Assembly: GCF_038025025.1 (NCBI RefSeq)
Contig: NW_027117343.1
Location: forward strand, 248,001-312,000
Reading direction: 5' to 3'
Length of the DNA stretch: 64,000 nucleotides
Source: Phyllosticta citribraziliensis
Lineage: Eukaryota
Part shown: positions 27,561 through 62,550 of the stretch, piece by piece
Layout of the letters: each line of letters begins with the position of its first letter
Numbering within the stretch: the stretch's first letter is position 1
Position numbers and translations under genes: made by a program
The notes under the pieces: generated by a model
What the model saw: the letters and a program-made list of their open reading frames with translations, nothing else
Told to the model about the DNA's origin: nothing
The model's database searches: none

Positions 27561-28635
27561 ATGGACACCACCGCAGGAAGTACGCCATATCTAACCCCTT
27601 CAGTAACAGAATCAATCCAAGCTGACTTCTTAATTCACCTTCAAGGCTTTTTCGGAGGCTTGAAAAAGCTCGTCGACAACAACTTCAAGAGCAAGTGGAA
27701 CACGGACCTGACCATTGTTTGCAAAGGCGAGAAGCTTTTTGCGCATCAAATAATATTGGGCGCGCATTCCGAATTCTTCCGCAAGGCTTGCGATCCGGAA
27801 TCGTTATTTAAGGTGAGATTGGTATTTGTGTAGTCGTTCCTTTGGCTTGAGCTGATGCGCAGCGCAGGAGGCTAGGACCGGCGTGATCAACCTGGAAGAT
27901 GATGATCCGTTCTTCGTCAAGCTCATGCTGGTGTACTGCTACAGTGGTGACTTGGACGACAAGATGATTGCTGAATGGGACAAAACACATTACAGCCGCT
28001 ACCCTGATAAGGAAGTGGGCACCGCAATTTTCAGCGTCCTCATGTACGCCTTGGCGGACAAGTACCAGATCAGGGATCTCAAAATCAAAGCAGCAGACCG
28101 CCTGAGGTGGTGGTTTTGCTTGTCAATTGATATCGAGTTTTCGCCAGTTGTGCTTCCGGAACTTGCCCGCAAAATATACACAACAACCCCTAGCACGGAT
28201 CAGGGATTGCGCGACCTTGTTTTGTTCTACGTGTTAGAAAATGTCGACTTCCTCATGAGGATTCGGCGCTTCAAAACCACAATGAGCAAAATTGATGGCT
28301 TCTGGGCAGATTTCGCCGAATACACCATACAGGTTGGCAAGAGAGAACGCCAGTGTCCAGAGTGCTACGGGTATTCCGAGCCGGAATTCCCCAGGTGGAC
28401 CGTCCGCCGCAACGGAGCCTCAGCCGAATGCCAACATTGCGAAAAGAGCCACAGCTGGGAAGAGTGGAACGATTTAGAGGACACAGACGAAGCCATCGAA
28501 CCTGACGACGACTCGGATGATGAGGCAACCCAGTCTTTGGAATCGAACAACAAACGCAAGGCAGACGAGGTAGACGAGCGGAACTTGTTCCCGTCAAAGG
28601 CCCGCAGGCTTGCCAGGCGCGCCAGCGTTCCTTGA
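27561..28635 (+). CDS. BTB/POZ-domain protein with C-terminal C4 zinc ribbon and acidic/basic tail (paralog 1)
   Basis: Exons 27561-27812 and 27868-28635, with a possible extra in-frame intron at 27580-27645. BTB motifs TDLTIVCKGEKLFAHQIILGAHSEFF, EARTGVINLEDDDP, MYALADKYQI and YTTTPSTDQGLRD. CPEC-x21-CQHC follows. Confidence 0.88.
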
Positions 28636-41245: not shown

Positions 41246-41913
41246 GGGAGTCTTACTGAATCCACACTCCCACCCCCTGTCAACAACTAGAATCAACACA
41301 CCGTTACTGTACCCACCCTCCCACCCACAGCTTTACTAAATCCACCCTCTTCACTAGATGACCTTTACGTATTTCTTATATTTTCTTTCACCTATATATT
41401 AGAAGGGTAATATACAAAATCCACCCATATCTTATACGCCAAAATAATATCCACCTACTAAAATAATTTCTACCTATCTCTATATTAGAGGTCTAACTAA
41501 TACTACTACTACTACTACTACTACTCCTATCTTTAGCTATATTTACCCCTAGTTACTTAAGATACTATTACTATACTCTAGGAAGGGACCTTACTATTAT
41601 AATTCTAGGTCTAAGACCCCTCTCTAGTATATAGTGGGTGGATTTTGTTTTAGTGGGTGGATAATGTTTTGTCAAAGGCCAGGTGGGTGGTTTTTATATT
41701 TGCCCCTATATATAACCATGAATAGTCTTACTAGTATAGACTTCCCTAATTAAAATAAAGCCTAAGATAAAGTATATAATTAGTTATAGGAGGGTGGATT
41801 TAGTAAAGTAGAAGGTGGATTTAGTAAAGCCATAGATGGGAGGATGGGTTCAGTAACAGTGTGTGCATTCAGTTGTCGACAGGGGGTGGGAGTGTGGATT
41901 CAGTAAATAACCC
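41246..41913. mobile_element. Non-autonomous foldback / Mutator-like (MULE) element, 668 bp, RIP-degraded interior
   Basis: ~100-bp TIRs (GGG....TTACTGAATCCACACTCCCACCCCCTGTC.ACAACT / reverse complement), with weaker inverted symmetry extending further in. Flanks are TTTGATTTT (41237-41245) and TTTGATTAT (41914-41922). The interior is AT/TpA-rich with no ORF. Confidence 0.88.
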
Positions 41914-42538
41914 TTTGATTATCGCAATCAATCCGTCGCCCATGGCACTCTTCGACGCACAATGGAGACTCTATGATTGCGACATTAACTTCTCTATATA
42001 GTGCCTCCTGCCTACTAGGGTGATACTCTTAGATAAGATGTCATTCGTCCTCCGTAATCTCGTCGTGAAGAGGGGAATCATGCCAATGACCAGTCTCCGG
42101 AGAAATTGGCCGGCTAACTTCAATGCGGAAGGCAAATTCACGCGATCCCTCTAACCCGTTGGTGCCCCTACTATTATAAGGTGACAAGGTCAGCTTGGGT
42201 ACGCCGTTGCTGAGGGACGAATCTTCCTGGGAGCTGCTGGCTTCGAGCAGGCTCGCATCAATCTCCCGGATCTGTCGCGCAGGCATCTTCTGTGGAGCAC
42301 TCCCACAAACCAGGAGAAGGAAGAGGGTATCTGCTTCAGATTCGCACCCAAGCACGCTCGTTTTCATGTTTTCGAAACAGACTACGGCCGCGTCCCATTT
42401 GATCAGCGCCACACGCATCCCACACAGGAAGAAGGGTTCAGTTTGTATGATGCCAACAGATTGCGCACTCAATACGGCGGTGTCTTCGGCGTAACAAGGT
42501 TTTCCCTATCTCACCCTGAATGCCAATCCTACCACGGA

Positions 42539-43105
42539 ATGGCAGAGCAGATCTCTCGCGGGATGCAAGGGGAAAACGACCCGGCTATGCGTCTCTGTCC
42601 TTCGGCTCTTGACAATGAGGAAGCGCGACCTCGCAAACAGTACCAGTTGGACTCGGGTGAGCCCGAATACCAACCCGAGTTGCGTCCCACCGTCACTTAC
42701 TGGGATGTTATTAGCACTCCTGCCATTCAGGACGCTATCCAGAGGAACGAGGCCACCCAAGCTGAGGTTGAGGGCCTGCGCAACCAGCATGCTGACCTTA
42801 ATGAGGACCTGAGCAATCTTCAAGCTCATTATAGAGCCCTGATTGCCTCCACAAACGACGTTCTTGCTGAGTTCGAAAGGCATCTAAGCACCTCTGGCAC
42901 AATTAATAAGCTGACCCAGCATACGAGGTCAACATCAGGCTTGCTTCAAGAACTTCTCAAGAGGGGGAGCCGCGCAATGAGTCCAGTCCCGAACCAACAA
43001 ACCTATCGGATCGTCCAGAGCGCCCAGAGTTCCATGACGATCGCTTGTTGCCCAAGCGACACCGCTACTTCAAATAGCATCATGCTCTGGGCCGGGTTCT
43101 ATTAG
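42539..43105 (+). CDS. Hypothetical protein with a coiled coil
   Basis: ORF (ATG 42539, MAEQISRGMQ...) with a heptad segment IQRNEATQAEVEGLRNQHADLNEDLSNLQAHYRALIASTNDVLAEFE. No family recognised. Confidence 0.35.
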   Translation: MAEQISRGMQGENDPAMRLCPSALDNEEARPRKQYQLDSGEPEYQPELRPTVTYWDVISTPAIQDAIQRNEATQAEVEGLRNQHADLNEDLSNLQAHYRALIASTNDVLAEFERHLSTSGTINKLTQHTRSTSGLLQELLKRGSRAMSPVPNQQTYRIVQSAQSSMTIACCPSDTATSNSIMLWAGFY

Positions 43106-43494: not shown

Positions 43495-43900
43495 CTGGAC
43501 CTGGTCTTTCTAATGAGTGGTGCGGCTGACATCTTCACGGTGGGGGCGGAAGGGCTCACTCTCTGGCTAAGTCTGGTCTCTCTGACGAACGGTGCAGCTG
43601 ACATCGTCGCGGCGCGGGCGGAAGGGCTCGCTAGCAGGCTGGACCTGGTCTCCCAGACGAGCGGTGCCACAGTGGGTGTAGAAAGAAGTGAGACTCCCTA
43701 GGTCTAGATACAGTAGTGGGCGGATTCTCTCTAAGTGTGGGTGTATATGTAAATGAATGCTCCTTGAGCGCGACTGCAGCAGTAGATGAATGCTCCCTAA
43801 GTGTGGCTGTAGCAATTAATGAATGCTCCCCAAGTGCACTCACATTACCAAGAGGTCTGTCGCATTTCTTAGACACCCACTGTGGTGCGGCTGGTATCAT
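43495..43900 (-). repeat. 72-bp tandem repeat (24-aa unit DQVQPxSEPFRPxRxDVSxT) of a decayed gene, interrupted by a MITE
   Basis: CT(GG/AA)..CTGGTC at 43495, 43567 and 43639. The third unit resumes after the insertion at 43885. TAG stops occur where sister units have CAG. Confidence 0.75.
43668..43884. mobile_element. MITE with CACAGTGGGTGT terminal inverted repeats and 4-bp TSD (GTGC), 217 bp, copy 1
   Basis: Perfect 12-bp TIR (43668-43679 / 43873-43884). GTGC on both sides. Internal motifs at 43722, 43755, 43788 and 43821 (33-bp period). Confidence 0.9.
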
Positions 43901-45450
43901 TGGCGATACGAGAGATCCGGAGGGATCTCTGAACTTCGGTGGCGATTTTTTTTGGGATGAGCGGCGTCACAACGTCGAGGCAAGACCAAGGGTATTACTT
44001 GCGTCCGGGGTGGATCTCGCTGAGGGCAAGGTAAACGAGGGCGCCCAGGTTGTCGTGGCTGAGATGTTGCCCAGTTTCTCTCTTGCTTGCAAGGTCGCCC
44101 GTAGCTTCAGGACCAGGGTTCAAAGCTCTGGTGGCTGTGTCGTTGGCAATGTCGGTGAAAAACTCTTGGGCTGACCCGAAAGACCGCTGGTGAAGGTGAC
44201 TATCCGTATTCTTAGAGTGAGGCGTAGGGGGTGGACGTCAAAGTGCAGATGGCGATGACGATGTGAGAATCTTGGGATTTTGATGGTGAACCGCGGGGTC
44301 CTTAATGAGACGGCATAAGGTAGAGGTGGGCGTGTGAAGCGGGTGGTAGATGTTGACTGGTAGGCGTTGCCCGGGCTGTTGGTAAACATCAGGCTGCGGT
44401 GCCGCCCGCACCACCGTGGCCTCTCCCTCTCGGTCACCACCTTGCATTTCGCTTTTTTCCGTCGACCTGACGGATACTCGCATGAAGGGTGTAGGTCTGA
44501 TTCATAATGTCGAGGAGAGACTCAGCGAGGTTTCCCCCTATTTGGCAGCTTCCGCCCGTGTATACTGGCCAAATCGACCATGTTGTCATTGGTAGCTGAG
44601 AGTCTTCAACTAAGGAAGACTGTCGGCTGGAGAACATCAAGCAAGTAGATGGAAAGGGATGCAGATGGAGATGCGAAAATGGAAATGATACTGACACTGA
44701 CACTGAAGTAGAAATTGGTATGCCGTGACATTTCGATGGGCATTTTGCAGGTTTGAAGTGCTTGGGTGTGGTGTGATACGCGCCCGTGCATGCGCAAAGC
44801 GAAGGTTCAGGAGAAGGGAAAGGGGAAGGAGGCATAGTAGCTGCGGCGGTGGACGAGAGCCGCACATATTGGGGTACTTGACTGCCTTGGATTGCGAAAA
44901 TGGAAGAGCAACAGCACTTTTCTTTTGACGCGGGTCGACTGCCAGTCTGCTTATCCTCCTGACTATCTGCCAGTCAGGAGAGTTGGCGAAGTTTCGACGT
45001 GACAGTGCCTTCCCTTCTTCGCCCATGCACGAGGTCATGTCGTGAAAACCTCTTTCCCGCGAGCAGGTCAGACGTTTCCAGAGTGTACAGACAGAGCTGG
45101 TTCATTGGTGCAGTGGATGGAAGATGCCTGAGCGCAGCCGTGGTGCTGAATGACAGTTTCCAACGTTCACTCGCCGCGTTTGGCCGATGAACTCGACGGA
45201 AGAAACAGCAATGATGGGAGGACAAAGAATCAGTGTGTCCCTGAAAGAGCAAGTCTATTATGCTACCTCGTCCTTTATCCTGCCTTCCATTGAGTGCTTG
45301 CCAGACCCTTCCATTCCCACAGGTGCCTTTTTCATTCCGCAACGTCTTCGAGCAATCCTCCTTCCGTTTCCCTGTCTCCCTGAGACTCTGATACCCTTTT
45401 GTCTTCAATCAAAACGTCTTCTTGAGGATGATACAAGTTTCATGTTGCAT

Positions 45451-46532
45451 TCAGATGCCGTCGCAGACCTGCAGCCTGCGAGTCTTAGCCGCAGGAGGAC
45501 TCATTCCAAGCTCTGGGGTTTCTTCGAGTCGCTTGCGCTTGTTGGAAGATGATGGAGACTCGTCGTCAGAGCTGTCTTTGTAGCTTCCCTTTTCGTCGTC
45601 GTCATCAAGCGGCTTGTTCCACTCCCTCATACCAAAGAGACTCTTGCACTTTGGACACGTGAGGCTGTTGGCAGCGAACCAATGGTTGTACCGGACCGTC
45701 CAATTCGGGAATGACTGTGATGAAATGACTTTGCACTCCGAATTCGGACAGATGCGCTCCCGCTTGCCAGTCTCCGCCTGATAAATGTGGAGTTCTCCCC
45801 AAAAGCCCTGAATCTTTTCCATTTTGACTCTGAACCGCTTCGTCTGGATGAGGTAGTGCAATTCTTTGGACGTGAAGTACAGTACGAGGTCGCGCAATCC
45901 CCTGTCCGTGCAGGGAGTCGTGCGGTAGACTTCTCGAACAAGATCGGGGAAAAAGTCAAGGTCGGAACGGGCCCATTCTTCGTGTTCCATGTACTCTTTG
46001 AATAGCTGTTGTGCGACTTTCTTGAGGGACAGAATCTGAAATTTGTCCGCCAACCCATAGATCCGGACTGTGCAAAGGGCGATATATTCCCATGTGTCGC
46101 CGTCCATGTCGTTTTCTCGGCACCATTCTTCCATGCATTCTCTGTCTAGGTCGCCTGTGTAACAGTATACAAGCAAGATCCGAACGAGAAAGGCGTCATC
46201 GTCGGTAAGAGTAATCACGCCGGTCCTAGCTTCCTGTTCCAACCTTTAGTTTTTGGCAGAACTAATACTTTGCGTCCGTCTTACCTTGAAGGGCGATTCT
46301 GGATCACAGGCTTTCTCGAAAAACGCGGACTGCATTCCAACTATGATCTTGTGGACGTGGAACTCCTTGCCTTGGCAGCGAATCGTAAGGTCGGTGTTCC
46401 ATTTGGCCTGGAACATGGAGTTGTTGTTTTCGAATATATAATAGAATAGGGCATCACGCAAAGCTAGGGTAGGTTGTCAGTTTCGTACAATCGTAGAGGA
46501 AGGAGTGACGTACAATCCTCACCGTAACGCAT
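45451..46532 (-). CDS. BTB/POZ-domain protein with C4 zinc ribbon and acidic/basic tail (paralog 2), ~326 aa
   Basis: Exons 46532-46514, 46463-46285 and 46233-45451 (GTACGT/TAG, GTAAGA/CAG; 981 nt in frame). Motifs TDLTIRCQGKEFHVHKIIVGMQSAFF, EARTGVITL, YGLADKFQI and CPNSEC-x25-CPKC. Confidence 0.88.
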
Positions 46533-48418
46533 GGTGCAAGAAGGCCGGGCGCTTCCCACTATCAGCAAGAGTGTGAGGCTTGGATCGGACACTGCTTGAC
46601 TGGCAGAGAAAGGGCGCGGCGTAAAGGAGAAGATGGGCAGGTTAAGCGCTTTGTGACTGCCAGCGCGAAGGTGAGACGAAGAGAAGAGGAGCGCTTGTTG
46701 GCGAGCCCACCGTTGAGGGTGTGAGTTGAAGATGCGAAAAGCATCACGGTGACCTAAACGCGTCGCGAAAATCTGGCGCAGGCGGCGCTAGTCCAGATCA
46801 GGAGATACGGGTGGTGAGGAGGAAGGTGGGTGACTCCTGATATCGGATTAACACACACACATGCGGCTACGTGTTAATTTGGCGCAGACTGGTTTCGCGC
46901 TCAAGAGTGCCTGTTAGTGCAAAGATGCAGGCAAAAGCAGCTCCTCCACTCATTCAGTCACTCACTCACCACATTCGCTCGTCACTGATCCATGACGGCT
47001 GGAAAAATGAGGTTCGCTTTCCTACCAATCTGTCGCTCCTCCGTCTTCGAAAGTCCTGCCTGACTCCAAGCCCAGACTTTGAGAATCCGATGCGTCCTCT
47101 CCCAGAACTCAAGTCTGCCCACGTCTCAATCTTCGCAAATCCAACGTCTGGTGTTCAAGAGTCCAAGCCTGCCTATGCTGCGACCCAACGGTACCGAGCC
47201 ACATGCGCCCACATCGTTGACTCCGAAAACCTTTCGAACTCTTTCAAAGGTACCTTGTCGCCGCAATCCCTCGCTTGAGAGGTCAATATGGGCCTGGCCA
47301 ATGGTAAATGGGGACAAGAATTGGGAACTCAGAGGCTGGACTTCTCGCTCAATTAAAGAAAACATGAAGAACAGCAGCGACGAAAGACTTCTGCAATGCA
47401 CGGAATGTTCCATCACTCCAAGCGTCAGCGTCTCCGAATGCTCCAGAACAAGCAGCGCACAGCTCCCTCTCGCATCTTCCACGTCTCGTAGGCCTTGCAA
47501 CATGTCTTGATCCAAACACCCCACGCCAGCATCATCGCACTCGGTTTCGCATCCCCTGAGTCGAATCCCACATCCGTCCGGCGAAGATTACCGAATGCGG
47601 ACACCGTGGGAGGTCGGTATAAGAGTAAAGGCAAAAAGCTACGGCTTGACGGGAAAGCCAAACTCTATCAACACGTGATTCCATTTTTCCACAGGTACCG
47701 CGTCGGCCGGGCCCGTCTTTCCGACATGTAAACCAGGGCTGTACCCGCGGTACCGGCCGCACCCGCGGTAACGGCCACACCCGTCATTCCGTTGTCCCGT
47801 TACTTTTGTGTCAGTGGTGCACCCGCTCTTTTAATTTCTCGTTTACTTAGTTGACGGGTCTTCGCGCTCGCTCGATCGAGGCACATTGCCTGCGGGCTGA
47901 CTCCGCTCATTGAGCGGTCGTCATGCATTCATCTTTTTCACACAATGCGGCTGGTAGCATCGCTGCCAACCCTTTCGCTCTTCTGGGGTCACATCTGGGC
48001 TGGTGTTCGACATACTGCTGACATGATGGCAACAAAAGACCATAAGGAAATAGATTCTGTCATTTGAAGAGTGAGCTACTTTTTTGGGACTTTCAGCTCC
48101 GTTCCGCTTCTTGGACCCTTCAGCGATTGTCTGAAATTAAAATTGCAACCGAATTCAGTTTTCTGAGATCCCACTCCAACCCTTGCCGTCACTTGCCGCC
48201 AAACTCCATGTCAAGCAATATGCCGTTCTTTCATAGATGCATACCCCTTTTTGGAATCCTCCGCTTTTTTTCCAAAGAAAATTTTGTCCGTCTCAGGTTC
48301 GGAAACGTGAAAGATTTGTTGCTCGCCTCACCCCAACGCTCGCAAGGAGCATTGAGCTCCACTGCCATTCACTCTCGAGGAGCATTCAGTTCCATGGCCA
48401 TTGATGAGAATGTGCCAT

Positions 48419-49430
48419 TCATTTGACACGCCTTTTCTTGGTTGGTTGGGTTCCAATGTTGGCTTCTTCTCCATCGCTTGACTTGATGTCGTACTCGTCG
48501 TACCATTTATCAGGCGGGGCTTGCGGGTTCCACCTTTCAATCGAGAAATTATTGCGACACTTCCTGCACTGGACTTCGTTCTGCTGCAGCTTGTTTTCGA
48601 ACGACACGTTCCAATCGCGCTTGCATACCTGGCACCAGCGCTCGCGCTTTCTGGTCTCGATGTTGCAACGCACCAATTCGGGCCAGAATCCGTCCAGATT
48701 TTTCATGCTCTCTGCGAACCGCTGGTGACTCATGAGGCTGACGATATGCTTTGAAGCGTACGCGATAGCCTGTCGGCGTAGTCCTAGATCAGTGCTGGGT
48801 GTGGTCTCGAAAATCTTGTGCGTGAGCCTCGTGAAGAAGGCCGGCGAGAGAGTGCCGCAAATGTAGAAATTGGAGAGCAAGGCATGGAATGCTCCTTGCG
48901 CAGCCGACTTGAGCCCAGCCACTCGATATTTGTCGGCAAGCGCATACGCGAGGACCCAACGCATCAACTTCTCAGACTCTTCCTTTCGATAAATGCCGAA
49001 GTAGAAGTTATCACCCGTCTTTTTGCCCGCGGGTAGGTCCCTAAGTATTCCAACGTCGGCCTCGCAAGTGTAGCAGTAGGAAAGCATGAACCTAACGAGG
49101 ATCGGGTCTTCATCGTCGAGCGTAATGACTCCTGTCCTGGCCTCCTGTTTCCACGCTTAGCTCGTTTCGAAGTCAAGGACATCGTAGATCTTACTATGAA
49201 GGGAGAGTCGTGCTTGAAAGCCAGCGCAAAGAATTCCGACTGTGCGCCGAGGACGACTTTGTGAGCATAGAATTCCTCGCCGTTGCAGCGAACAGTAAGG
49301 TCTGTGTGCTGCTTCGTTTTGAAGCCGGTGGTCGAGTACATGGTGAGACCTTTCGTCAATGTTTTGGCGTGGTCTGCAGCAGATGGATCAGCTTCGCCTG
49401 CTTCACGTTTGGAAAGAACATACCGGTCAT
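48419..49430 (-). CDS. BTB/POZ-domain protein with C4 zinc ribbon and basic tail (paralog 3), ~303 aa
   Basis: Exons 49430-49424, 49373-49195 and 49144-48419 (GTATGT/CAG, GTAAGA/CAG; 912 nt in frame). Motifs TDLTVRCNGEEFYAHKVVLGAQSEFF, EARTGVITL, YALADKYRV and CQVC-x18-CRKC. Ends in PTKKRRVK. Confidence 0.88.
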
Positions 49431-49516
49431 GGCGAGGAAGCAGCTTGACGAGGTGATCTGGCGGATGATTTGGTGGAGAGGAGAAGTGATGAAGAGAGGG
49501 CTCGGGTGAATGTGCG

Positions 49517-49818
49517 AGGTTGGAGAGGAGAGAGAGGTGCGCGGTGATTGAAGAGGTAGATATACCCGCAGCGGGCACAAAGTCCAAGTAGGAAGGCTGA
49601 GTCAACGGAGGAAGTCACGGTGGCACCTCTCACTCCAGATGATGAGAGCAGTTGAGGTATTGAGCAAAGCTAGACCTGGATGGGGGGTTCATGTTGAGGT
49701 TGAAGAGGAGAGGAGCTGCGTGGTGATTGAAGAGGTAGATATACACGCCCGTGGGCAGCGCCGGCGCAAGGCCCAATGAGGAAATCTGGGTCAACGGAGG
49801 AAGTCACGATGGTACCTC
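49517..49818. repeat. Direct duplication (~115-120 bp, offset ~180 bp) of the BTB paralog 3 upstream region
   Basis: GGTGATTGAAGAGGTAGATATAC and GTCAACGGAGGAAGTCACG.TGG.ACCTC occur in both 49517-49628 and 49697-49818. Confidence 0.85.
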
Positions 49819-50761: not shown

Positions 50762-52711
50762 TTACAGCCTGCAATTGTCGAGCAAATCCTCTATCTGCAT
50801 CATTGGCGACGCCGCGCGGGTTCTCTTCGCATCCGGATTTTCAACCCCCTCAATGAAGCTCTTTCCTGCGTCGTCATCGTCTCCGGCGATGACGTCCTGC
50901 TCGTCCAACCAGCCCTCCTCCATGGCGAGGACGATCAAATCCTTTGCGGACCAGACGCCCGAAGTGGCTACGTTATCTGGATCCAAGAGATCCTCCAGCT
51001 TCTCCAAGATCTTCTCCAATGCCAGCTTCTTCTCGACGAGCAGCTCTTCAAACGACTTTTCGACCTTGGAAGCTCCCTTTTTCCTTGACCTACTCCCGTT
51101 GGATCTGCCCTTCTTGATCTTCTTGGTCGGCGTAATCTGGTACATCATCTCGTGTAAGACGAAGTGGAGCCACATGAGGTTGGTTTGGGGATGGAAGCCG
51201 GCCCAGGTGCGGCCTTTGGCCTTTGCCTCATCTTTTCGCGCGTCGACGTCGGCGAGGGGGTCGTCAAGGAACATGGCGCCACGCATGTAGCGGTAGATTT
51301 CATACTGGTAGTTTTCGGATGCATCGGCTTCAAACAGATAGTCTTGCAGCTCCAGGTCCTCATAGGCAATGTCGATGAGTTTTGGCTCCGGGGATTTCAA
51401 CGGTGACGTCATTTGAGCTCGTGATAATGTGTAGTCGATGAGTGTGGTCTCGAGGCCAGTGAAGTTGAGCTTGCGTGCGAGCTGGGCGGCGCTGCTGGGT
51501 GCGGCGATGGGTTCGTTCGAGTTGATGGGCCGGATGCAGATGTTGCCCATGTGCAAGTCGCGATGTTCGAAATGCGCTTCCTCTTCACCTTTGCCCAACG
51601 CCAGTGCGATGCCCCAGAATATATCCCAGACGCCAAAGACGCCTCCAACAGTCTCCAAGTCTCTCTCCTCCAGGTCGCTGCCTGCGTCTTGCATCTCGAT
51701 GACCGCCCAGAGCTGTGATGCGTCGTAGCTGCCTTCAACGCCGGGATCGGGAAAGATGCTTTTGTTCTCCTCCGGTCGCGCGTCGTTCCAATCCCGCCAG
51801 GCCTTGATGAAGGGTCCCGAAGGTGCCCCCTTTAGAACTTCGACTGCTCGAAAGTTGGTGAAGCCTGGCACTTCCGACATACGTTTGAGAAGTTTGACTT
51901 CGCCAACGACGGACTCTACGGAGCTCATGTTCTCAACGCGTTCGTCCAGCTCCTTTTCCTCTTCGGTCCTTCGTTTTCCTCGCGGGCGGTCGACAGTCGG
52001 AGGAGGCTTCAGAGCTATGATCTTGAGAACGGACTCGTCAGACTTGGTGAAACCATAAAAGTCTTCGTTGAGCGCGAGTCGGTACACCTCGCCGTAAGAT
52101 GCTTCGGCTATTTTGATGACCTGGAATCGGGGTTCCAGACTGGCTGCCCATGTTGAGAATCGTTTTGGCGCGAAGTTTCTGTGAGTAGGGTCTGAGCAAA
52201 GGCGAAGCAGGTTTCTCACGTGGAAAAAGACTGGGTTTCGACGTCGATGCTCTGGTATCGAGACATCTGGGGGCTTTCTGCGCCCAGATTTGGCGCTTTT
52301 TGCCTCCGGGGTCGCTGTGGCCGTGGAAGGAAGCTTCTCTGAACACTCGATCGTTGGCATGCATGCCCCGAGGTCGAATGCTCCGGGAGGCGACGAGGCT
52401 CCTCTCGCTTCACATTCGGTTCGAGTCGTCCCTCGGTTCAGCTTTGCTTTTGGCCGTCGAGAAGGCGAGCAGACGACGTTGCTATCAATGGGTTGCAAAG
52501 CACGTTGTTGCCTTTCGACTTTGCTCCCGTCCTCGATTCGGTCGTCTTCGAGCTCATTCATCTTCGAAGCCCTTCGTTCCGGAATGGCCTCGACAGTTTT
52601 TATCGGCTTGAGCTCCGTTGGCTGTTCGGTCGGGCTGGTGAATAGGTCCGTCATGCTGCAGAATGCGGTCGTCTTCTTGGAACGCTTTCCGTATGTTTTG
52701 ATGCCGGCCAT
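50762..52711 (-). CDS. Haspin-family protein kinase (histone H3 Thr3 kinase; Alk1/Hrk1-like), 649 aa
   Basis: Atypical kinase motifs KIAEASYGEVY, SVLKII, FEHRDLHMGNICI, haspin-specific IDYTLSRA, YQYEIYRYMR and FHPQTNLMWLHFVL. Basic disordered N-terminus (KTYGKR). Confidence 0.93.
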   Translation of the reverse strand: MAGIKTYGKRSKKTTAFCSMTDLFTSPTEQPTELKPIKTVEAIPERRASKMNELEDDRIEDGSKVERQQRALQPIDSNVVCSPSRRPKAKLNRGTTRTECEARGASSPPGAFDLGACMPTIECSEKLPSTATATPEAKSAKSGRRKPPDVSIPEHRRRNPVFFHVRNLLRLCSDPTHRNFAPKRFSTWAASLEPRFQVIKIAEASYGEVYRLALNEDFYGFTKSDESVLKIIALKPPPTVDRPRGKRRTEEEKELDERVENMSSVESVVGEVKLLKRMSEVPGFTNFRAVEVLKGAPSGPFIKAWRDWNDARPEENKSIFPDPGVEGSYDASQLWAVIEMQDAGSDLEERDLETVGGVFGVWDIFWGIALALGKGEEEAHFEHRDLHMGNICIRPINSNEPIAAPSSAAQLARKLNFTGLETTLIDYTLSRAQMTSPLKSPEPKLIDIAYEDLELQDYLFEADASENYQYEIYRYMRGAMFLDDPLADVDARKDEAKAKGRTWAGFHPQTNLMWLHFVLHEMMYQITPTKKIKKGRSNGSRSRKKGASKVEKSFEELLVEKKLALEKILEKLEDLLDPDNVATSGVWSAKDLIVLAMEEGWLDEQDVIAGDDDDAGKSFIEGVENPDAKRTRAASPMMQIEDLLDNCRL

Positions 52712-52898
52712 GGTGTCGGCTCGAGTTGTCGGCGTATTCCGGTGTGGGTTTTAAGTTGAGCGCGGTTCCCAGCGGGCGGGTGGCAAGGGTGCGTGGACGG
52801 TCGGAAGGGAGAGATGTTGAGTTGGAATGTTGAAGAGGGCTTTGCGCAAGCTGCGACTTTTGCCTGATCTCGTGCTAGCGCGGTGGTTGCCCCAGCAA

Positions 52899-53131: not shown

Positions 53132-55656
53132 AGTGCCGAAGCAAGTAGTCTTCTGCATGTCCTGCTCAGAACTATTCATTTCAGCCACAAAGCAACGGGA
53201 AGAGCGTTGGGGAAGTATCTCGTCCCGAATTTCAGGCTGGAAGAAAGCATATCTCCATAAAACGCGGCTTTCTTTCCTATTAGGATCTACGTCCACATGC
53301 AAAGGCTGAGTATCGAAATACCGGTTATTCACTCTCTACACCATTAAACTAGATATTCAACATGGGTAAGGTTCACTTTTAGGGCAACAAGTAGACCAGT
53401 CACCCACAACTAGCTGAATTTGTCGATAAGAGGCCTGAGTACATAGCGCTCCGTGAAATCGATGGCTACGCTCAGCGCCTAAATGGTGGAGCCTCAGCAC
53501 TTACCGCAAAAAGTAGGTCATTTGGACTGGGTTCTTGGTAGTGCGCGTCCAGCAGATGTTCAAGATATACGCGAAGCCCACGGATACAATACAAAATCTC
53601 AAAATCCAAATGCCTAGGTATAAAATGACGTCGGCGACTTGGCCATGCTTAAACGCGTGGTGCGCGCGTCTTATTTGCTTCGGCGCAGTATTAACTTCTC
53701 CATGACGCGGCATGACTCTGTTCTCTTTTTGGAAATATACCTTGTTATTTCGGGCTGCAGTCACCCTTGTGGCTGGTCAACATTGGCGGTAAGAGTCCGT
53801 GTGGGAGCTGTTGTTGAAACGCGTTCAATGACGGCTTCAGTGCAGCTTGTTACTAGGTAATTCTTGCACGCTGGCCGGAGACGGCGAGAGCTATTTAGAA
53901 ATCCGGTTGCTAAATGGCATTGCTCTGACTCTTGAGCTCGATGATGGTAGGTTGTGGTACTAGAAGTTCACTTTCTAGGGGCATACCAAATTGAACATCT
54001 GCTGCTGTCAGCCTGCTCTTACCAAACCTGAATAACATTCATTGCGTCACGGGCGTATCTTTCCGCTCCCTTGCAAACCCCCATGTCAAAGTTGCCGCTG
54101 ACTCGAATTATTAAGGAACCTATTTGACGGTGCATTTATGGCCAACTGTTGCAGATCAACCTGGACTTGTCACCAATCAATGCCATTGTTTCAACTCAAT
54201 ACGGCTTAGAGTTGCTACCCGGGCGAAGATAGTATGAAAATAGCTTGATTCAGGCCGTCGCGCCAATTACGCAAGACGGCGATAACAAGTCGTCTACCTA
54301 ACAAAGCAGACAAGGGAACTGACGAGAAAACTGCCAGCACGACTGTCTCAGACCTCAAGCAAAGAAGCAAAGAAGCAAGCAAGACATGACTGCGAGACTG
54401 CAACCGAAGTTGCGTGCGCAGGTGCGCTTATCACTACCGGAGGAAGAGAGCTTCGTTATACTCTGTTGTTTTGGAGAACGCCGTAAATCAACGGTCTTCA
54501 GTCCACTGACCGAGGCTTGGTAGCAAAAGCCGTGGCAGACACAACAATGGTTGAGGTCAGTCAAGGAGAATTCAAGACCCTGAGAGATTAGGTCTAGGGA
54601 GCATTCGAGCCCCAACCTACAGAAACTGAGGATTGTGTGTGCCACGACTTTTGCGGCGGAGCCTTGGACCCTCCGACCACTCCGGCTCCTGAGGTCCGCG
54701 AATCATCCCCATCATCGTGCCGTGTACCGTCACGAAATTTGCCACAAGCCCCATCATCAACCTTGAAGGCAATGGAAGATCCCGTTCTTCGACTTGTGTG
54801 TCTGGAGCCGACGAGCTGGAAACAGCGGAGTGCAAACAACTCTCCTCATCGTTATTGCCTCGTCCTTCGTGTTGCGGAAGCTTCTTTTGCCTGCGTCACG
54901 CGCGCAGCCATTTCCACCCGGTCAGAATTTCAGTGACCTCTCCATGATTACTCAAGAAAGAGCCAAAGCAACTATTATATCCCACTAGAAAGCAATTCAG
55001 CATCTACAGATCTTGAATGCTCCAAGAGACCAGGCAAGAAGCAACGCCAAGCCAAAAAGGGAGACAGAAAGGCGCCGCAGTACGATTGACCAGCGAAATT
55101 CGCCACTATCATCCGCGGATACGCAGTTCAAACTTCTCCTGTGCGTACAGGTAAGCCAAACGGAATTGAGCAGTCCATGTTGCATTCCACAAGATGACCA
55201 CGCCAGATGCAGGGTCGTTGCTAAAGTCGTCGAATAGCATTCACGTTCAGCACCATGTGCACATTCTGCGATCTAAAAACTACCCTGTTCCTCTATCATT
55301 TATGGCTTGCATTTAAGAGTAAGCTACACAAAATCTGTCTCTTTGACGTTTTGTAGACCCACCGTGTTGAGCCCTATTAGGGACCTTAACGTTCTCTGCC
55401 ATGCCAATCAGGTCCATGAAACAGAGCACGCGACCTCAACACACACCCGCTGTCTGGCGAAAGCCCACCGTCTATCCTCCCGTTGAGAGCCTGTTCAGAC
55501 TCGAAACTGCCATCTCTCGACAAGCTGCTTCGTGAATGAGGAGATTTCTAAAGTTAGCAGACTTTACGGCGTTGGAGAGAGGAGACGACGGTGGATCACG
55601 GCTTGAAGCTGCTGTGTTGCCCACTTTTCTCGAGGCTCACGATAAGAGGAACTGGC

Positions 55657-55662
55657 TATAAA
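55657..55662 (+). promoter_or_regulatory. Putative TATA box of the GDPD gene
   Basis: TATAAA lies ~75 nt upstream of the ATG at 55736. Confidence 0.45.
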
Positions 55663-55735
55663 GCCCACGTCTCTTCTCGTGGAAAGACATCTATCCAACA
55701 TTGTGACAGAGAGAAAACTCCCCACTGTCTTCAAC

Positions 55736-56857
55736 ATGCTACTCCAGAAACTACTCTTTGCTCTTTATTTCGCTGCAGTCATCCACTGTCAATGCCTCAA
55801 AAACCCCAGCAAAATCATCAAGGCAATGAATGGTGAGGATGCCCAACTCCGCCTTGTCTTTGCCCACCGCGGCATCCAAACCCGAATCGCCGTGGAGAAT
55901 TCTATCCGAGCCGTCGACGAGGCTTGCAAGACCGACGTCGACGGTATCGAAATCGATGTCCAAATCGCAAAAGATGGGACCCTTTGGCCGAGCCACGACA
56001 CGCGGGTTGGTCGCATCACAAGCTACAAAGACAAGCCCACGGACACCCTGTTTGATATCCTGAAGGACGACCCATACGGACCCAAGAACCCACGGATCAG
56101 AGACTTGACACACGACCAGCTGGATTCTCTCTTCCTCCGCAACACCCGGGGTGAGGTCCAACAAGGTGTCTATTTCCACAGCGTCGAATTTGTGCTCACC
56201 CAAGTCAAAACCAATTACCCTCACGTCGCCATAGTCTTGGATGTCAAAAGTGCTGATGCAGTCACGCCTGCCGCTGAGCTTGTCAACCGGTTGGGGATGC
56301 AGGGGCAAGTCGTCATCAAATTTCTTGCCGTCTGGGTTCCGCCGTCAGCCGTGGCCAGCGCCACAAGAGGCGTCGGCTTCATCGTTGTCACATACTGCGA
56401 CATGCTTGACGGTTTTGTGGACAAAGGAATTGGCCCGAATCCGCAGGAGAAGGTCAAATCCTACCTCTCAGCGTACTTCAACAATCCCAACTATGTCTCC
56501 ATGGAGCCCCCGACCAAGAACTGGTTTGTCTCCAACAACAAAGAGGTTGTGCTTCCAACAGGGCCCGGTGGCTTTGTCGACAGGTGGTTGGTCAACGAGG
56601 TCAAGAGGGGTATCGGAAAATTCCACTTGAGGAACGACTACAATCTTGGTACAGTTGACTCTTTGGGGCATTGTTGTGTGGACGCCAACTCCTATCTTGC
56701 CACCTCAAGGGTCTTTGGCAAAGAAGGCCCGGACCAGCGCTATGATGCCAACGTCGTCTTGAAAGCTGCGGACTGGGTGACGACAGATTCGGCTACTGAA
56801 GTCCTGGCAGACGCTGTAAGGTCAGGTTTCCGTGTCAAAAGGGACACTCTTTGCTAG
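55736..56857 (+). CDS. Secreted glycerophosphodiester phosphodiesterase (GDPD)-domain protein, 373 aa, intronless
   Basis: Signal-peptide-like MLLQKLLFALYFAAVIHC. GDPD motifs FAHRG, ENS, GIEIDVQIAKDG, HDTRVGRIT, LDVK and C-terminal VTTD. Confidence 0.88.
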   Translation: MLLQKLLFALYFAAVIHCQCLKNPSKIIKAMNGEDAQLRLVFAHRGIQTRIAVENSIRAVDEACKTDVDGIEIDVQIAKDGTLWPSHDTRVGRITSYKDKPTDTLFDILKDDPYGPKNPRIRDLTHDQLDSLFLRNTRGEVQQGVYFHSVEFVLTQVKTNYPHVAIVLDVKSADAVTPAAELVNRLGMQGQVVIKFLAVWVPPSAVASATRGVGFIVVTYCDMLDGFVDKGIGPNPQEKVKSYLSAYFNNPNYVSMEPPTKNWFVSNNKEVVLPTGPGGFVDRWLVNEVKRGIGKFHLRNDYNLGTVDSLGHCCVDANSYLATSRVFGKEGPDQRYDANVVLKAADWVTTDSATEVLADAVRSGFRVKRDTLC

Positions 56858-58496: not shown

Positions 58497-58635
58497 CACA
58501 TTGGGCTTTGAAAAAAATGACAGACTCTCTGATTCTGGCGACGGCAATGAGCGACTGCTCCCTGAGCGTAGTTGTGACAATAAACGGATATTCCTCAGGC
58601 GCACTTCTCACTAAAATCTCCATAATTGATGCGTG
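58497..58635. mobile_element. Degenerate third copy of the CACAGTG MITE family (one end retained)
   Basis: Begins CACATTGGGCTTTGAAAAAAATGACAGACTCTCTG, matching the copy 1 end CACAGTGGGTGTAGAAAGAAGTGAGACTCCCTAG. Motif variants at 58553 and 58586 are 33 bp apart. The other end and TSD are not recognisable. Confidence 0.6.
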
Positions 58636-59077: not shown

Positions 59078-61548
59078 GTTGGTGGTGGTGGTGGTGGTGG
59101 TGATTATGATGATGATGGGGGGTGTAAGCCGTGGAGGCGGCGGGGGCAAAGGCGGCAGCGGCGCCTCGGGTTCAGGTGTCGCTCTTGAGCGTGACGTGGA
59201 GGAGAGTTCGCAAGAGGGTGAAAGGGTTGACGGATGATATAGTTCGTTGATAAGGTGCGGTGACGGCGTAAAGCGTTGCTTGGAGATGATGGTGATGGGA
59301 CAGGACTTAAATCATGGTCGCTTAAGTTGCGGAACTATTGGTTATTAAAAAAGCAGGGAGGACAGTTGCTACAGGCGTGAGCTATCAATTAATAGATTAT
59401 GAGGGGAGGGCTATAGATTATGAGAGATGGTATCAGAGGTGAGATGAAGATGTTCTGGCATACAACAAAGGCTCATCTTCTCAAACTGAGCGCGCAGAAG
59501 AACATTCTGTGAAGAGCATGATGCTTCTTCATCGAGGCTGAAGTGTCGGTTCGAATTTCGCGGAAGAGGCAGCTTGAGACTACGGCATGTGAGAGCAAAG
59601 AATGTGCTGGAACAGGAGCAGATCAACTGTAGAGCGCGAAGGCGGTTGGAGCGCCGCAATCGTTTTGAAAGTGAGTGCCAGTCTGCTTGACCGACGGGAG
59701 TCCAAGTCAGTTGTCGTTGCACTGCGTGCCGGCCGCAGTGAGTCCACTCATCGAACCCACAACAACAAAGGACAACTTTCTCATTGATTCGAAATATGAT
59801 CCATGCATTTCACGACTCCTCTTTGCAGCATCAGAGCAAAACAACTCTTCTGTGCCTCTTGAAAATATGGAATCAGGTCACACCATGCGCGCATTGCAGC
59901 AAGCGCCCAGCGGCGCAGTCCCTGGTCAAAAAGCGTCAGACAAACAGACTTTGCGACCGTCAGGCTCTCACTGACGCTCAGAAATGTCCGTAAGGTCTGA
60001 AGGCGCTTTTCCATGCTCAAGTCATCGTCATGAACGAGTCGCCCAGCACGGCACATTGCCGACCCCAATCCCCGGCACAACGCCAGCACAATTTCAAAGC
60101 GACAAGATCGCTGACTACCAAAGTCTTAAATCCAAGATTCAAAGTAGTGAGGACATCCTGATCGCTTTCGCTTTCGCTATTGTTGTCGCTCAACTCCACA
60201 AGATTCCTCGGCCAAGAAGACACTTCTCAAAGCCGCCGTCCAAGAGCCAATGCTTTCAAGGTAAATGTGCTCAATCGCGATGTATGAATTGATGGCGTGC
60301 TGACATCAACTATTAGGCTCAGGCGCCAGTCGGCTTGTCTGTCTTTGTATTGACCTCTCAAAGTTGTCACCAACTCTACGTTAAACACCTGTGGAGCACG
60401 TTTATAAACATCACTTGGTGCCACAACCTTATTGCAACACACAAGACTGGTGATCACGCTTAATACTACCTATTTGATCTGTAAAAACTTCCTCACGTGG
60501 ACAGCATCCCTGGAATACCATGTAGTCTCGTTTCGCTATTGCCGGGAGAGTCATGAGCGAGCAGGGTCAAGCTCAGTCGGTATGTCAATACTCTGGCAGA
60601 AGTCACACACTCTCTTTCGATGTTTCATCTCCACGATTTAGTGGCTTCCCACTTAACGATATCATGGACTCTCTTGAGCTAAGGCTCTCGAACTTCTGCG
60701 AATTCGGGTCATGGGCCATGTCGCGCGTCTATGGCCTGAATCGAGCACTTCTCCCTATCTTCTGTCTTTGACGAGTCCCAATGGCAAGCCTAGCCTCATG
60801 TGGCAATCCAGGTCATTCTTTAGCCATGGAAACCCTGTCGATGGCTGCTCTCTGAGTGGTGCTGTGCATAAAGGCTCAGCCCAAGCGAATCCGACGTTAC
60901 ACCCGATTACGAACATATGCCCAATGACCGCGCTGTCAAATGCACATTTGCATTGCAACAAGACAAATTCGACTCTACTTCCCATGAGCTTTACCAACTC
61001 ATGGCTTGCGGACGCTCCTGCCAGTTGGTGATGCACTGTGATGCAAGTCTTGGGCACATATGGTACATTTAGCTAACTCTCGACTGGCGTTGTGGCTCTC
61101 TACAAGTCAAAAAGCAAACTTTGGGGAAATAGACGAGCTTATTATGTCAGTTCCCTAAAACACACGGAAGTTCCCTTATTTACGTAAATGTAGTGAAAGA
61201 GGAATGACCAAGACCGGGGCGAATGTCTGCCACGGCGCCGTTTCGATTTGCTCGACTATTTACGATCTTCATTTGCACATATTTTGCTCGTATTCTCGTT
61301 CAGTGCCTCACCTAGACTATCCCAGCTCACCGCGACGTCCGTCATGGCTACAGCGACGCCTTCAGCCATGCTGCTAGACGCTTCGCCATTTCTTCCGTTG
61401 GCGGACTCACTTGCCGCCGCTGATCTCAATCCCGTACTTCAAAAGCTAACGACAATCTACAGAATGTGATCAAAGAAACAGATGCTGCTACAGTTCACCT
61501 TGCTATGGCCGGCGACGACTATGTATGACATCAGCTATAACGTCGCGG

Positions 61549-61702
61549 CACAGTGGGCGTCGAAAAGAAAATGTGACAGACCTCCTGGCAATGTGAGTGC
61601 ACTTAGGGAGCATCCATCTGAAGCGGTAATTACGCTTAGGGAGTATTCATCTACTGGTGCATCTAGACCCAGGGAGTCTTGTTTCTTTCAACACACGCCA
61701 TG
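61549..61702. mobile_element. CACAGTG MITE copy 2, 154 bp, 4-bp TSD (GCGG), inverted relative to copy 1
   Basis: Colinear with the reverse complement of 43668-43884 (GACAGACCTC.TGG.AATGTGAGTGCACTT.GGGAGCAT; ATCTAGACC.AGGGAGTCT). It has two rather than four internal 33-bp units. GCGG at 61545-61548 and 61703-61706. Confidence 0.85.
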
Positions 61703-62550
61703 GCGGCGTGAGCACAGAGTAACTGGATCAGCCCGTCAACCAACAAAGATTCCAGGCCTGTCATCCAGAATATCCGTCGCATCATCACGACCGCAGCAGT
61801 CGTTCGCGCAGGCACGGAATGCATCCAATCAGGGGAAGTCAATTACTCAAGCACCTACGTACTTTACCTACCTAGCCAAAGCAAACCCACGCACTATCGC
61901 AACATGACACAAACCCAATGGCTTAAACCACATAAGCATAACCCACCGTCACCCACAGCCAACCGCCCGGGTTTCTAACGACACTCAGCCCCCGGATCCC
62001 CGGAATAACCGCATTTTGTCCGTCCCCGGAGCGCAACGACGGATGACGACTTCCAAACTAGCTTTTTTGCGGCAGATTGGGTTGGATGCGTGCCATAGAG
62101 TTGCGAACAGCCTTTGGCCGCCTTGCTTGAAAGATGGGAGGGAGATAGAGTTTTATTCGAAAGGGGCAGTTTTGGAGCGAGTGGGGCTTGGTATTTGCGG
62201 TTTGTGGTTCTCCTGCTGCTACTCTCCTTGTCTGCTTGGTTCTCAAATGACTCCTGTTTGTATCGACGCATTGTGCTTTTTGCAGTGTTGGTTTTACGAG
62301 TTGATTAATGTTTCTGTTTCCTTGCTTTTCCGTTGTTCTCCTGCTCAGGGGCTGGCTTGTGGTGAGTCCCGAGAGCGATACCTTTCTTTCCACATACCCA
62401 ACAACCATAGCCTAGAGAACGAGGGGACACAATGATTGATTCGGCGATGCAGATGATAAAGCAATATTCGCTGCCTCTCAAATGTCCAATACACAACCAC
62501 TTGCAACCTCAGGCAAACCCAACCCAGCCATACCCCTGAGCCCCCACCCC

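What the first reader, a model, noticed from the sequence alone, without database searches (positions are those of the whole stretch)
43664..43888. MITE family ending in the RSS heptamer CACAGTG with 4-bp TSDs and variable 33-bp repeats
Seen: copy 1 (43668-43884) has perfect CACAGTGGGTGT TIRs and GTGC flanks. It splits one unit of a 72-bp tandem repeat, so the empty site (GAGCG-GTGC-GGCTG) can be read from the sister units, which supports a 4-bp duplication. Copy 2 (61549-61702) independently has GCGG flanks. The copies differ by two internal 33-bp units. Established: CACAGTG is the V(D)J heptamer. Transib/RAG-like transposons start with such ends but make 5-bp TSDs, whereas Chapaev-type (CMC) elements have CAC ends with 4-bp TSDs. 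Neither is a commonly described ascomycete element to my knowledge. Inference: non-autonomous progeny of a possibly undescribed fungal CAC-terminal DDE transposon. No transposase is visible in this window.
Basis: partly seen in the sequence, partly recalled or inferred. Interest (0 to 1): 0.8.

Follow-up and report, generated by a model that had tools for sequence, protein, structure and literature searches.

The report
Fungal mini-transposon with RAG-like ends
This is a real family of small, mostly old jumping-DNA elements in a mould genome whose ends look like those of the transposons related to the antibody-gene cutting enzyme, but the enzyme that moved them was not found, so its exact family is still open.

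Summary
Window 43668-43884 and 61549-61702 are two copies of a dispersed MITE family: 249 ends in the 31-Mb genome against 0 for the control. Exact 4-bp target duplications flank 40 of 71 paired copies; 0 of 71 show 5-9 bp; background is 0.5%. The duplications are 76% G+C. The body is a 33-bp array whose core motif starts inside the left terminal repeat. Copies are diverged (nearest-neighbour median 84%, best 98%) and show CpA-biased, RIP-like changes. No transposase or long parent element was found; six Pfam searches were blank, but their controls were silent too. CAC..GTG ends with a 4-bp duplication fit the Chapaev hallmark within the CMC/Transib (CMCT) clade. The first nine bases equal a sea-urchin Transib end, but the 5-bp duplication and the RSS nonamer are absent. 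The heptamer is therefore a clade signature, not a V(D)J signal. CMC elements are already known in ascomycetes (Sly1-1). Verdict: a new non-autonomous family of a known kind; a fungal Transib-like side lineage is not excluded (about 15%).

The parts
43664..43667 (.). left 4-bp target-site duplication of copy 1 (GTGC)
43668..43884 (+). MITE copy 1, 217 bp, five core repeats
43668..43700 (+). left terminal repeat (first 12 bp perfect with the right end; contains the first core motif at 43694)
43687..43851 (+). 33-bp direct-repeat array; core motif at 43694, 43727, 43760, 43793, 43826 (array edges approximate)
43850..43884 (-). right terminal repeat (43873-43884 perfect; inner edge approximate)
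43885..43888 (.). right 4-bp target-site duplication of copy 1 (GTGC)
43495..43667 (.). host 72-bp tandem repeat (decayed coding repeat) whose sister units show the empty site
58497..58603 (+). third, degenerate copy: left end and two core repeats, no right end found
   Evidence: (E 1.5e-14)
61545..61548 (.). 4-bp duplication of copy 2 (GCGG)
61549..61702 (-). MITE copy 2, 154 bp, three core repeats, one degenerate end
61703..61706 (.). 4-bp duplication of copy 2 (GCGG)

Best explanation
A non-autonomous cut-and-paste DNA transposon (MITE) that was moved in trans by a DDE transposase of the CMCT clade (EnSpm/CACTA, Mirage, Chapaev, Transib, ESTA, Plavaka, Sly). Shown: fixed CAC..GTG ends, a 4-bp duplication, dispersed copies, GC-rich targets, a 33-bp array that changes in unit number, several diverged subfamilies, RIP-like changes. 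Inferred: the enzyme bound the terminal ~22 bp, cut at CAC and inserted with a 4-base stagger into GC-rich DNA; the repeated core motif, which also sits inside both terminal repeats, is a multimerised transposase (or helper protein) binding site that makes the two ends asymmetric; units are gained and lost by slippage or during gap repair; the parent element was destroyed by RIP or lost while the short copies largely escaped. My split within the clade (judgement): Sly- or Chapaev-like CMC about 0.45, another unnamed CMCT lineage about 0.23, Transib-like about 0.15 (listed as a rival).
For: 4-bp duplication in 40 of 71 paired copies, 10 more with one mismatch, none at 5-9 bp; chance 0.5%, P about 1e-72. 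249 ends against 0 control. Terminal positions 1-12 are 86-97% conserved (inflated because copies were picked by their ends). 133 of 158 unit spacings are exactly 33 bp, 225 units in 71 copies, none on the reverse strand; an exact 33-bp tandem duplication separates L060 from L059. Chapaev hallmark is CAC..GTG with a 3-4-bp duplication (PMC4079192); the CMCT clade has CA..TG ends and 2-5-bp duplications (PMC12730594); a CMC element exists in ascomycetes (PMC4592977). 18 of 24 C>T/G>A changes in the five 212-bp copies are at CpA.
Against: No transposase or long element was found: PF02992, PF18759, PF12940, PF20231, PF05699 and PF18758 gave 0 matches (controls silent, so weak), and none of 11 long-range end pairs is an element. 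21 of 71 paired copies have flanks differing at 2 or more of 4 positions. The fungal CMCT lineages I read about make TA, 2-bp or 3-bp duplications, not 4, and the Chapaev3 families read make TWA. A 2026 preprint shows duplication length is labile within one transposase lineage, so ends and duplication only support a classification. The binding-site role of the 33-bp unit is untested.
Confidence: 0.68

Rival explanations
1. The parent is a Transib/RAG-like transposase that has shifted from a 5-bp to a 4-bp stagger, in a kingdom where Transib is reported missing.
For: The first 9 bases (CACAGTGGG) equal the end of Transib-N1_SP and the 3' end of TransibN1_AG (supplement of PMC1131882). Targets are GC-rich (121 of 160 bases against 55% background, P 3e-8), as for Transib and RAG. 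RAG itself makes some 4-bp duplications and Transib relatives with 2- and 3-bp duplications exist.
Against: 0 of 71 copies have a 5-bp duplication. No nonamer: mean 3.3-4.0 of 9 matches at 11-13-bp spacing, 1.3-2.2 at 22-24, critical AA in at most 14 of 71. RAG1 profile finds nothing in the genome (control silent). A survey of fungal genomes lists Transib as absent (PMC5751038); the one rust record is in PMC1131882.
Confidence: 0.15
2. The parent belongs to another DDE superfamily with CA..TG ends and an unusual duplication length, such as a short-stagger hAT or a KDZ element.
For: Fungal hAT7 ends read CAACAGTGGG/CAACGGTGGG and hAT lineages with 5-, 6- and 7-bp duplications exist; Cryptococcus KDZ2/3 make 4-8-bp duplications; Kyakuja ends are CA..TG.
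Against: Third base is C here, G in canonical hAT ends; the duplication is fixed at 4 bp, not variable; KDZ2/3 have 139-169-bp TIRs; PF05699 and PF18758 blank (weak). An 8-bp duplication with the boundary moved in by two bases is excluded by the empty site.
Confidence: 0.13
3. Not a cut-and-paste element: a dispersed minisatellite, a short retro-element or an intron-generating element.
For: The interior is a tandem array that varies in unit number; the unit is open in some reading frames.
Against: Inverted ends with a fixed 4-bp duplication at dispersed sites; no poly-A tail in the copies inspected; no codon-phase bias in unit conservation (0.67/0.71/0.64); no Rfam match; neither consensus end offers an AG acceptor at its 3' tip. 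RNA data were not examined.
Confidence: 0.04

Closest known systems
Chapaev (CMC group; EnSpm in Repbase)
   Same: CAC..GTG ends; 4 bp lies in the stated 3-4-bp range (PMC4079192); non-autonomous families classed by ends alone exist (PMC3014272, PMC6004678).
   Different: The passages read concern animal hosts; Chapaev3 inserts at TWA, this family at GC-rich 4-mers; transposase not available for comparison.
Sly1-1 of Neurospora crassa (CMC; homologues in Chaetomium, Coccidioides)
   Same: Ascomycete CMC element with TIRs and a duplication of at least 3 bp, subject to RIP (PMC4592977).
   Different: 11.5-kb autonomous, two genes. Its TIR and duplication sequences are in a figure and supplements I could not read, so identity of ends is untested.
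Transib / RAGL / RAG1 with RSS
   Same: Terminal heptamer; first 9 bases equal Transib-N1_SP; GC-rich targets.
   Different: 4-bp not 5-bp duplication; no nonamer; position 10 and 11 differ from Transib-N1_SP, so Repbase's rule (same duplication length, at most 1 mismatch in 11) is not met.
Fungal EnSpm, ESTA, CNEST, CNIRT6, Plavaka
   Same: CAC or CA ends in EnSpm, ESTA, CNEST, CNIRT6 and PlavakaB.
   Different: Duplications of 3 bp (EnSpm, CNIRT6), TA (ESTA, CNEST) or 2-3 bp (Plavaka); basidiomycete hosts; in the supplement search the places shown for the 7-9-base end motifs (6 shown; the 7-mer occurs 14 times) were internal, none at a 5' end.
mimp and other Tc1/mariner-derived fungal MITEs (recalled, not read)
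   Same: Size class about 200 bp; a CAGTGGG-like stretch near the tip (recalled).
   Different: They duplicate TA; here CA is part of the element and the duplication is a variable 4-mer.

Membership tests
MITE (non-autonomous TIR element) | short, non-coding, terminal inverted repeats | tested here: met
   102-248 bp, about 33-bp imperfect TIR; no Pfam hit for the ORF running through copy 1
MITE (non-autonomous TIR element) | dispersed copies with a fixed-length target duplication | tested here: met
   249 ends; 40 of 71 exact 4 bp
MITE (non-autonomous TIR element) | presence/absence polymorphism between strains | tested here: inconclusive
   4 low-depth contig sets laid; no joint removes copy 1 or 2
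CMCT clade | CA..TG ends and 2-5-bp duplication | tested here: met
CMCT clade | DDE transposase with C(2)C and H(3-4)H motifs | not testable with these tools
   no parent element found; no seed protein could be obtained from a tool
Chapaev | CAC..GTG ends with 3-4-bp duplication | tested here: met
Chapaev | transposase groups with Chapaev | not testable with these tools
   no transposase
Transib/RAGL | RSS-like terminal heptamer | tested here: met
Transib/RAGL | 5-bp duplication | tested here: not met
   0 of 71
Transib/RAGL | GC-rich target | tested here: met
   121 of 160 bases G or C, P 3e-8
Transib/RAGL | A-rich nonamer 12 or 23 bp from the heptamer | tested here: not met
Transib/RAGL | RAG1-core-like transposase in the genome | tested here: inconclusive
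   PF12940 0 matches, control silent
EnSpm/CACTA (canonical) | CACTA/CACTG end and 3-bp duplication | tested here: not met
   end is CACAG; 3-bp match in 6 of 71 against 40 of 71 for 4 bp
Sly family | ends and duplication equal to Sly1-1 | not testable with these tools
   sequence only in a figure; supplements unavailable
Tc1/mariner-pogo MITEs | TA duplication | tested here: not met
hAT | 8-bp (5-7 in variants) duplication, G at terminal position 3 | tested here: not met
   0 of 71 at 5-9 bp; position 3 is C in 89%

The most novel reading that the evidence does not exclude
The copies are the footprint of a Transib/RAG-like transposase lineage in ascomycetes that keeps the exact RSS heptamer and GC-rich targeting but makes a strict 4-bp stagger and uses a 33-bp array of binding sites in place of a nonamer. 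This would put a RAG relative in a kingdom where Transib is reported absent and give a natural variant for studying how stagger length is set.
Probability: 0.15. Interest if true: 0.75.

Novelty: new member of a known kind. Interest (0 to 1): 0.42.

Why it matters
The fungal branch of the CMC/Transib clade is still being mapped: ESTA, Plavaka and CNEST were placed only in 2025-2026 papers, all with 2-3-bp duplications. A family with a clean 4-bp GC-rich duplication and Transib-like tips marks a further fungal lineage or the small partner of Sly-type elements, and gives an exact end motif with which to find the parent in related genomes. Without the transposase it is a well-defined lead rather than a discovery; the V(D)J link is common ancestry of ends at most.

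Tried and rejected
Parent element: fetched DNA around all 142 distinct ends that searches listed (149 of the 249 rows were never listed); most unpaired ends run into a decayed short body; no shared non-element sequence of 270 bp or more at under 99.5% identity among 125 loci. Of 11 opposite-facing pairs 0.4-30 kb apart, 9 use an end that already closes a short copy and 2 have non-matching flanks (C8 pair; C2 pair). A pattern allowing all RIP-type changes in the end found 39 sites; the 4 I fetched from it were short copies in ordinary-GC DNA. A RIP-type pattern of the unit found 3 sites: two short copies and an unrelated AT-rich duplication. Six Pfam searches blank with silent controls; no positive control was run on this genome. 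Other collections: 21-mer in metagenomes 0, 18-mer in viral contigs 0; 17-mer gave 48 and 26 single hits, none with the element body or a closing end plus duplication, read as chance. Polymorphism: runs X1, X2, X3, X6 are low-depth contigs; no empty site seen for either copy. Single-strand fold not beyond shuffles (z -1.5). Rfam blank. Coding origin of the unit: no codon phase. Empty sites are not enriched in long open frames (median 109 aa at 14 sites against 172 at 50 control positions; weak control). Shifted boundaries (2-bp TG or 8-bp duplication) rejected by the empty site and by the variable base outside CAC. Atlas search of the neighbouring 306-aa ORF gave only scores under 0.9. Earlier scan findings were not available.

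Full report
Observation. Copy 1 lies at window 43668-43884 with a perfect 12-bp inverted repeat and GTGC on both sides. It interrupts a 72-bp tandem repeat whose two intact units carry GTGC once at the same register, which fixes the boundary at CAC and the duplication at 4 bp. Copy 2 at 61549-61702 is the same family in the opposite orientation with GCGG flanks and one decayed end. A core motif recurs every 33 bp, five times in copy 1 and three times in copy 2. A third, partial copy lies at 58497-58603.

The family. The window is part of a 31.4-Mb, 22-contig genome. A neighbouring BTB protein has its nearest Atlas clusters in Ascomycota, and the genome has AT-rich blocks of 23-33% G+C, as expected in a filamentous ascomycete with RIP (inference). 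Copy 1 gave 50 matches; the 12-base end occurs 96 times against 5 for the control and a 23-base end at up to 3 mismatches 249 times against 0, so there are at least about 125 copies. I fetched DNA around the 142 distinct ends that were listed plus the 30 best DNA matches. Among 71 copies with both ends recognisable, the four flanking bases match exactly in 40, differ at one position in 10, and at two or more in 21; no copy has a 5- to 9-bp duplication. With both ends near consensus the figure is 27 of 41. Random flank pairs match 0.5% of the time. The duplications are 121 of 160 G+C against 55% background (P 3e-8), with a loose palindromic preference (pyrimidine second, purine third, each 63 of 80).

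Anatomy and age. The two ends form an imperfect repeat of about 33 bp, best conserved over the first 22 bases (copies were chosen by their ends, which inflates this). The core motif first appears at position 27, inside the left terminal repeat, and continues as a one-directional array: 225 units in 71 copies, 133 of 158 spacings exactly 33 bp. Lengths run from 102 to 248 bp. Unit gain by local duplication is visible between two members of one subfamily. Nearest-neighbour identity has a median of 84% and a maximum of 98%; no two copies examined are identical, so the family is old with a few younger bursts. In the five 212-bp copies 24 of 45 differences from their majority sequence are C>T or G>A and 18 of these are at CpA, a RIP-like pattern.

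Search for the parent. None was found. The long-range pairs, RIP-type patterns, six Pfam profiles and scans of metagenome, viral and prokaryote collections are listed under Tried and rejected. These negatives are weak: the profile controls were silent, 149 of 249 end rows were never listed, and no Sly, Chapaev or Transib protein could be used as a query. Public runs gave no empty site, at low depth.

Mechanism. Shown: fixed ends, fixed 4-bp duplication, dispersal, GC-rich targets, variable array. [quoted passage not shown] Inferred: the enzyme was of the CMCT clade; the 33-bp unit (about three helical turns) multiplies a binding site that also lies in both terminal repeats, like the subterminal repeats of CACTA elements (recalled, not found in the passages); RIP removed the long parent and mostly spared the short copies.

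Comparison. Kojima 2025 (PMC12730594; parts 1-3 of 7, passages, and supplement listing, part 1 and searches, with sequences cut at 400 letters) defines a CMCT clade with CA..TG ends and 2-5-bp duplications; its fungal members make 3-bp, TA or 2-3-bp duplications. CNIRT6 (3 bp) and CNEST (TA) in Cryptococcus do too (PMC12810828, passages). Chapaev has CAC..GTG ends and 3-4-bp duplications (PMC4079192, passages), which this family meets, though Chapaev3 prefers TWA (PMC3014272, passages). Sly1-1 shows that CMC elements occur in ascomycetes (PMC4592977, passages and part 1 of 2 of one section); its ends are in a figure and its supplements were not available, and they bear directly on novelty. Transib shares the heptamer, the first nine bases in one family and GC-rich targeting (PMC1131882, passages and supplement S4 search and part 1 of 3), but its 5-bp duplication and nonamer are not met here; protostome RAGL elements also keep 5 bp (PMC7204232, passages). 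Transib is listed as absent from fungi (PMC5751038, passages), while a 2026 preprint reports 2- and 3-bp duplications in Transib relatives (10.64898/2026.08.26.747230, passages), so the failed tests lower membership without closing the question. By Repbase's rule for non-autonomous elements (PMC4455052, passages) it would not be filed as Transib. Also seen in passages only, with little bearing: PMC1636069, 10.1101/2021.09.26.461848, PMC4298943, PMC6004678, PMC4158355. The Epichloe MITE paper PMC3227409 was seen only as a search listing and not read.

Novelty. Ten paper searches showed me no fungal element with CAC ends and a 4-bp duplication, but I read only listings and passages, the library lacks most subscription journals and Repbase Reports, and Repbase and Dfam could not be searched. 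The family is probably not catalogued, and its features fall inside a known clade. I rate it a new member of a known kind, interest 0.42. The bolder reading, a fungal Transib/RAG-like lineage with a 4-bp stagger, has about 15% and would deserve 0.75.

Noticed in passing
window 41256-41903: A different non-coding element: about 100-bp terminal inverted repeats, TA on both sides, AT-rich RIP-like interior; looks like a Tc1/mariner-pogo type non-autonomous element.
   Followed up: partly
window 60503-61135: One contig of run X1 skips these 633 bp (depth 5.7, only 30 letters on the short side); no terminal repeats seen by eye. Possible strain deletion or artefact.
   Followed up: partly
window 54512-54640: Several contigs break or skip 86-87 bp here, suggesting another small dispersed repeat.
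   Followed up: no
window 43495-44238: Host of copy 1 is a decayed coding region with a 24-residue repeat; frames reopen across the junction when the element and one duplication are taken out.
   Followed up: partly
window 48346-48395, 44838-44915, 45106-45161, 1742-1793: Weak fragments resembling the 33-bp unit (pair I5, E 0.004-0.14 for three of them); may be very old copies or chance.
   Followed up: no
window 55646-56854: Uninterrupted 403-residue frame with a GDPD phosphodiesterase domain (PF03009, E 1e-12) in a lower-GC stretch.
   Followed up: no
window 45454-46245, 48422-49614, 27865-28070: Cluster of related BTB-like genes.
   Followed up: partly
window 50765-52750: Haspin-like kinase (PF12330, E 2e-36).
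   Followed up: no
window 42185-43105: 306-residue frame with no Pfam match above cut-off and no Atlas hit above 0.84.
   Followed up: partly
L213:720-2200 (G000 C12): AT-rich, RIP-like tandem copy of the neighbouring gene followed by a long palindrome; unrelated to this family.
   Followed up: partly
L136 (G000 C10:520000-527500); L130-L135: AT-rich blocks of 23-33% G+C, several at contig starts; likely RIP-mutated repeats where a parent element could hide.
   Followed up: partly
L005:1501-1870 and L009/L034: Copies often lie within a few hundred bases to 2 kb of each other, hinting at local hopping or shared target regions.
   Followed up: no
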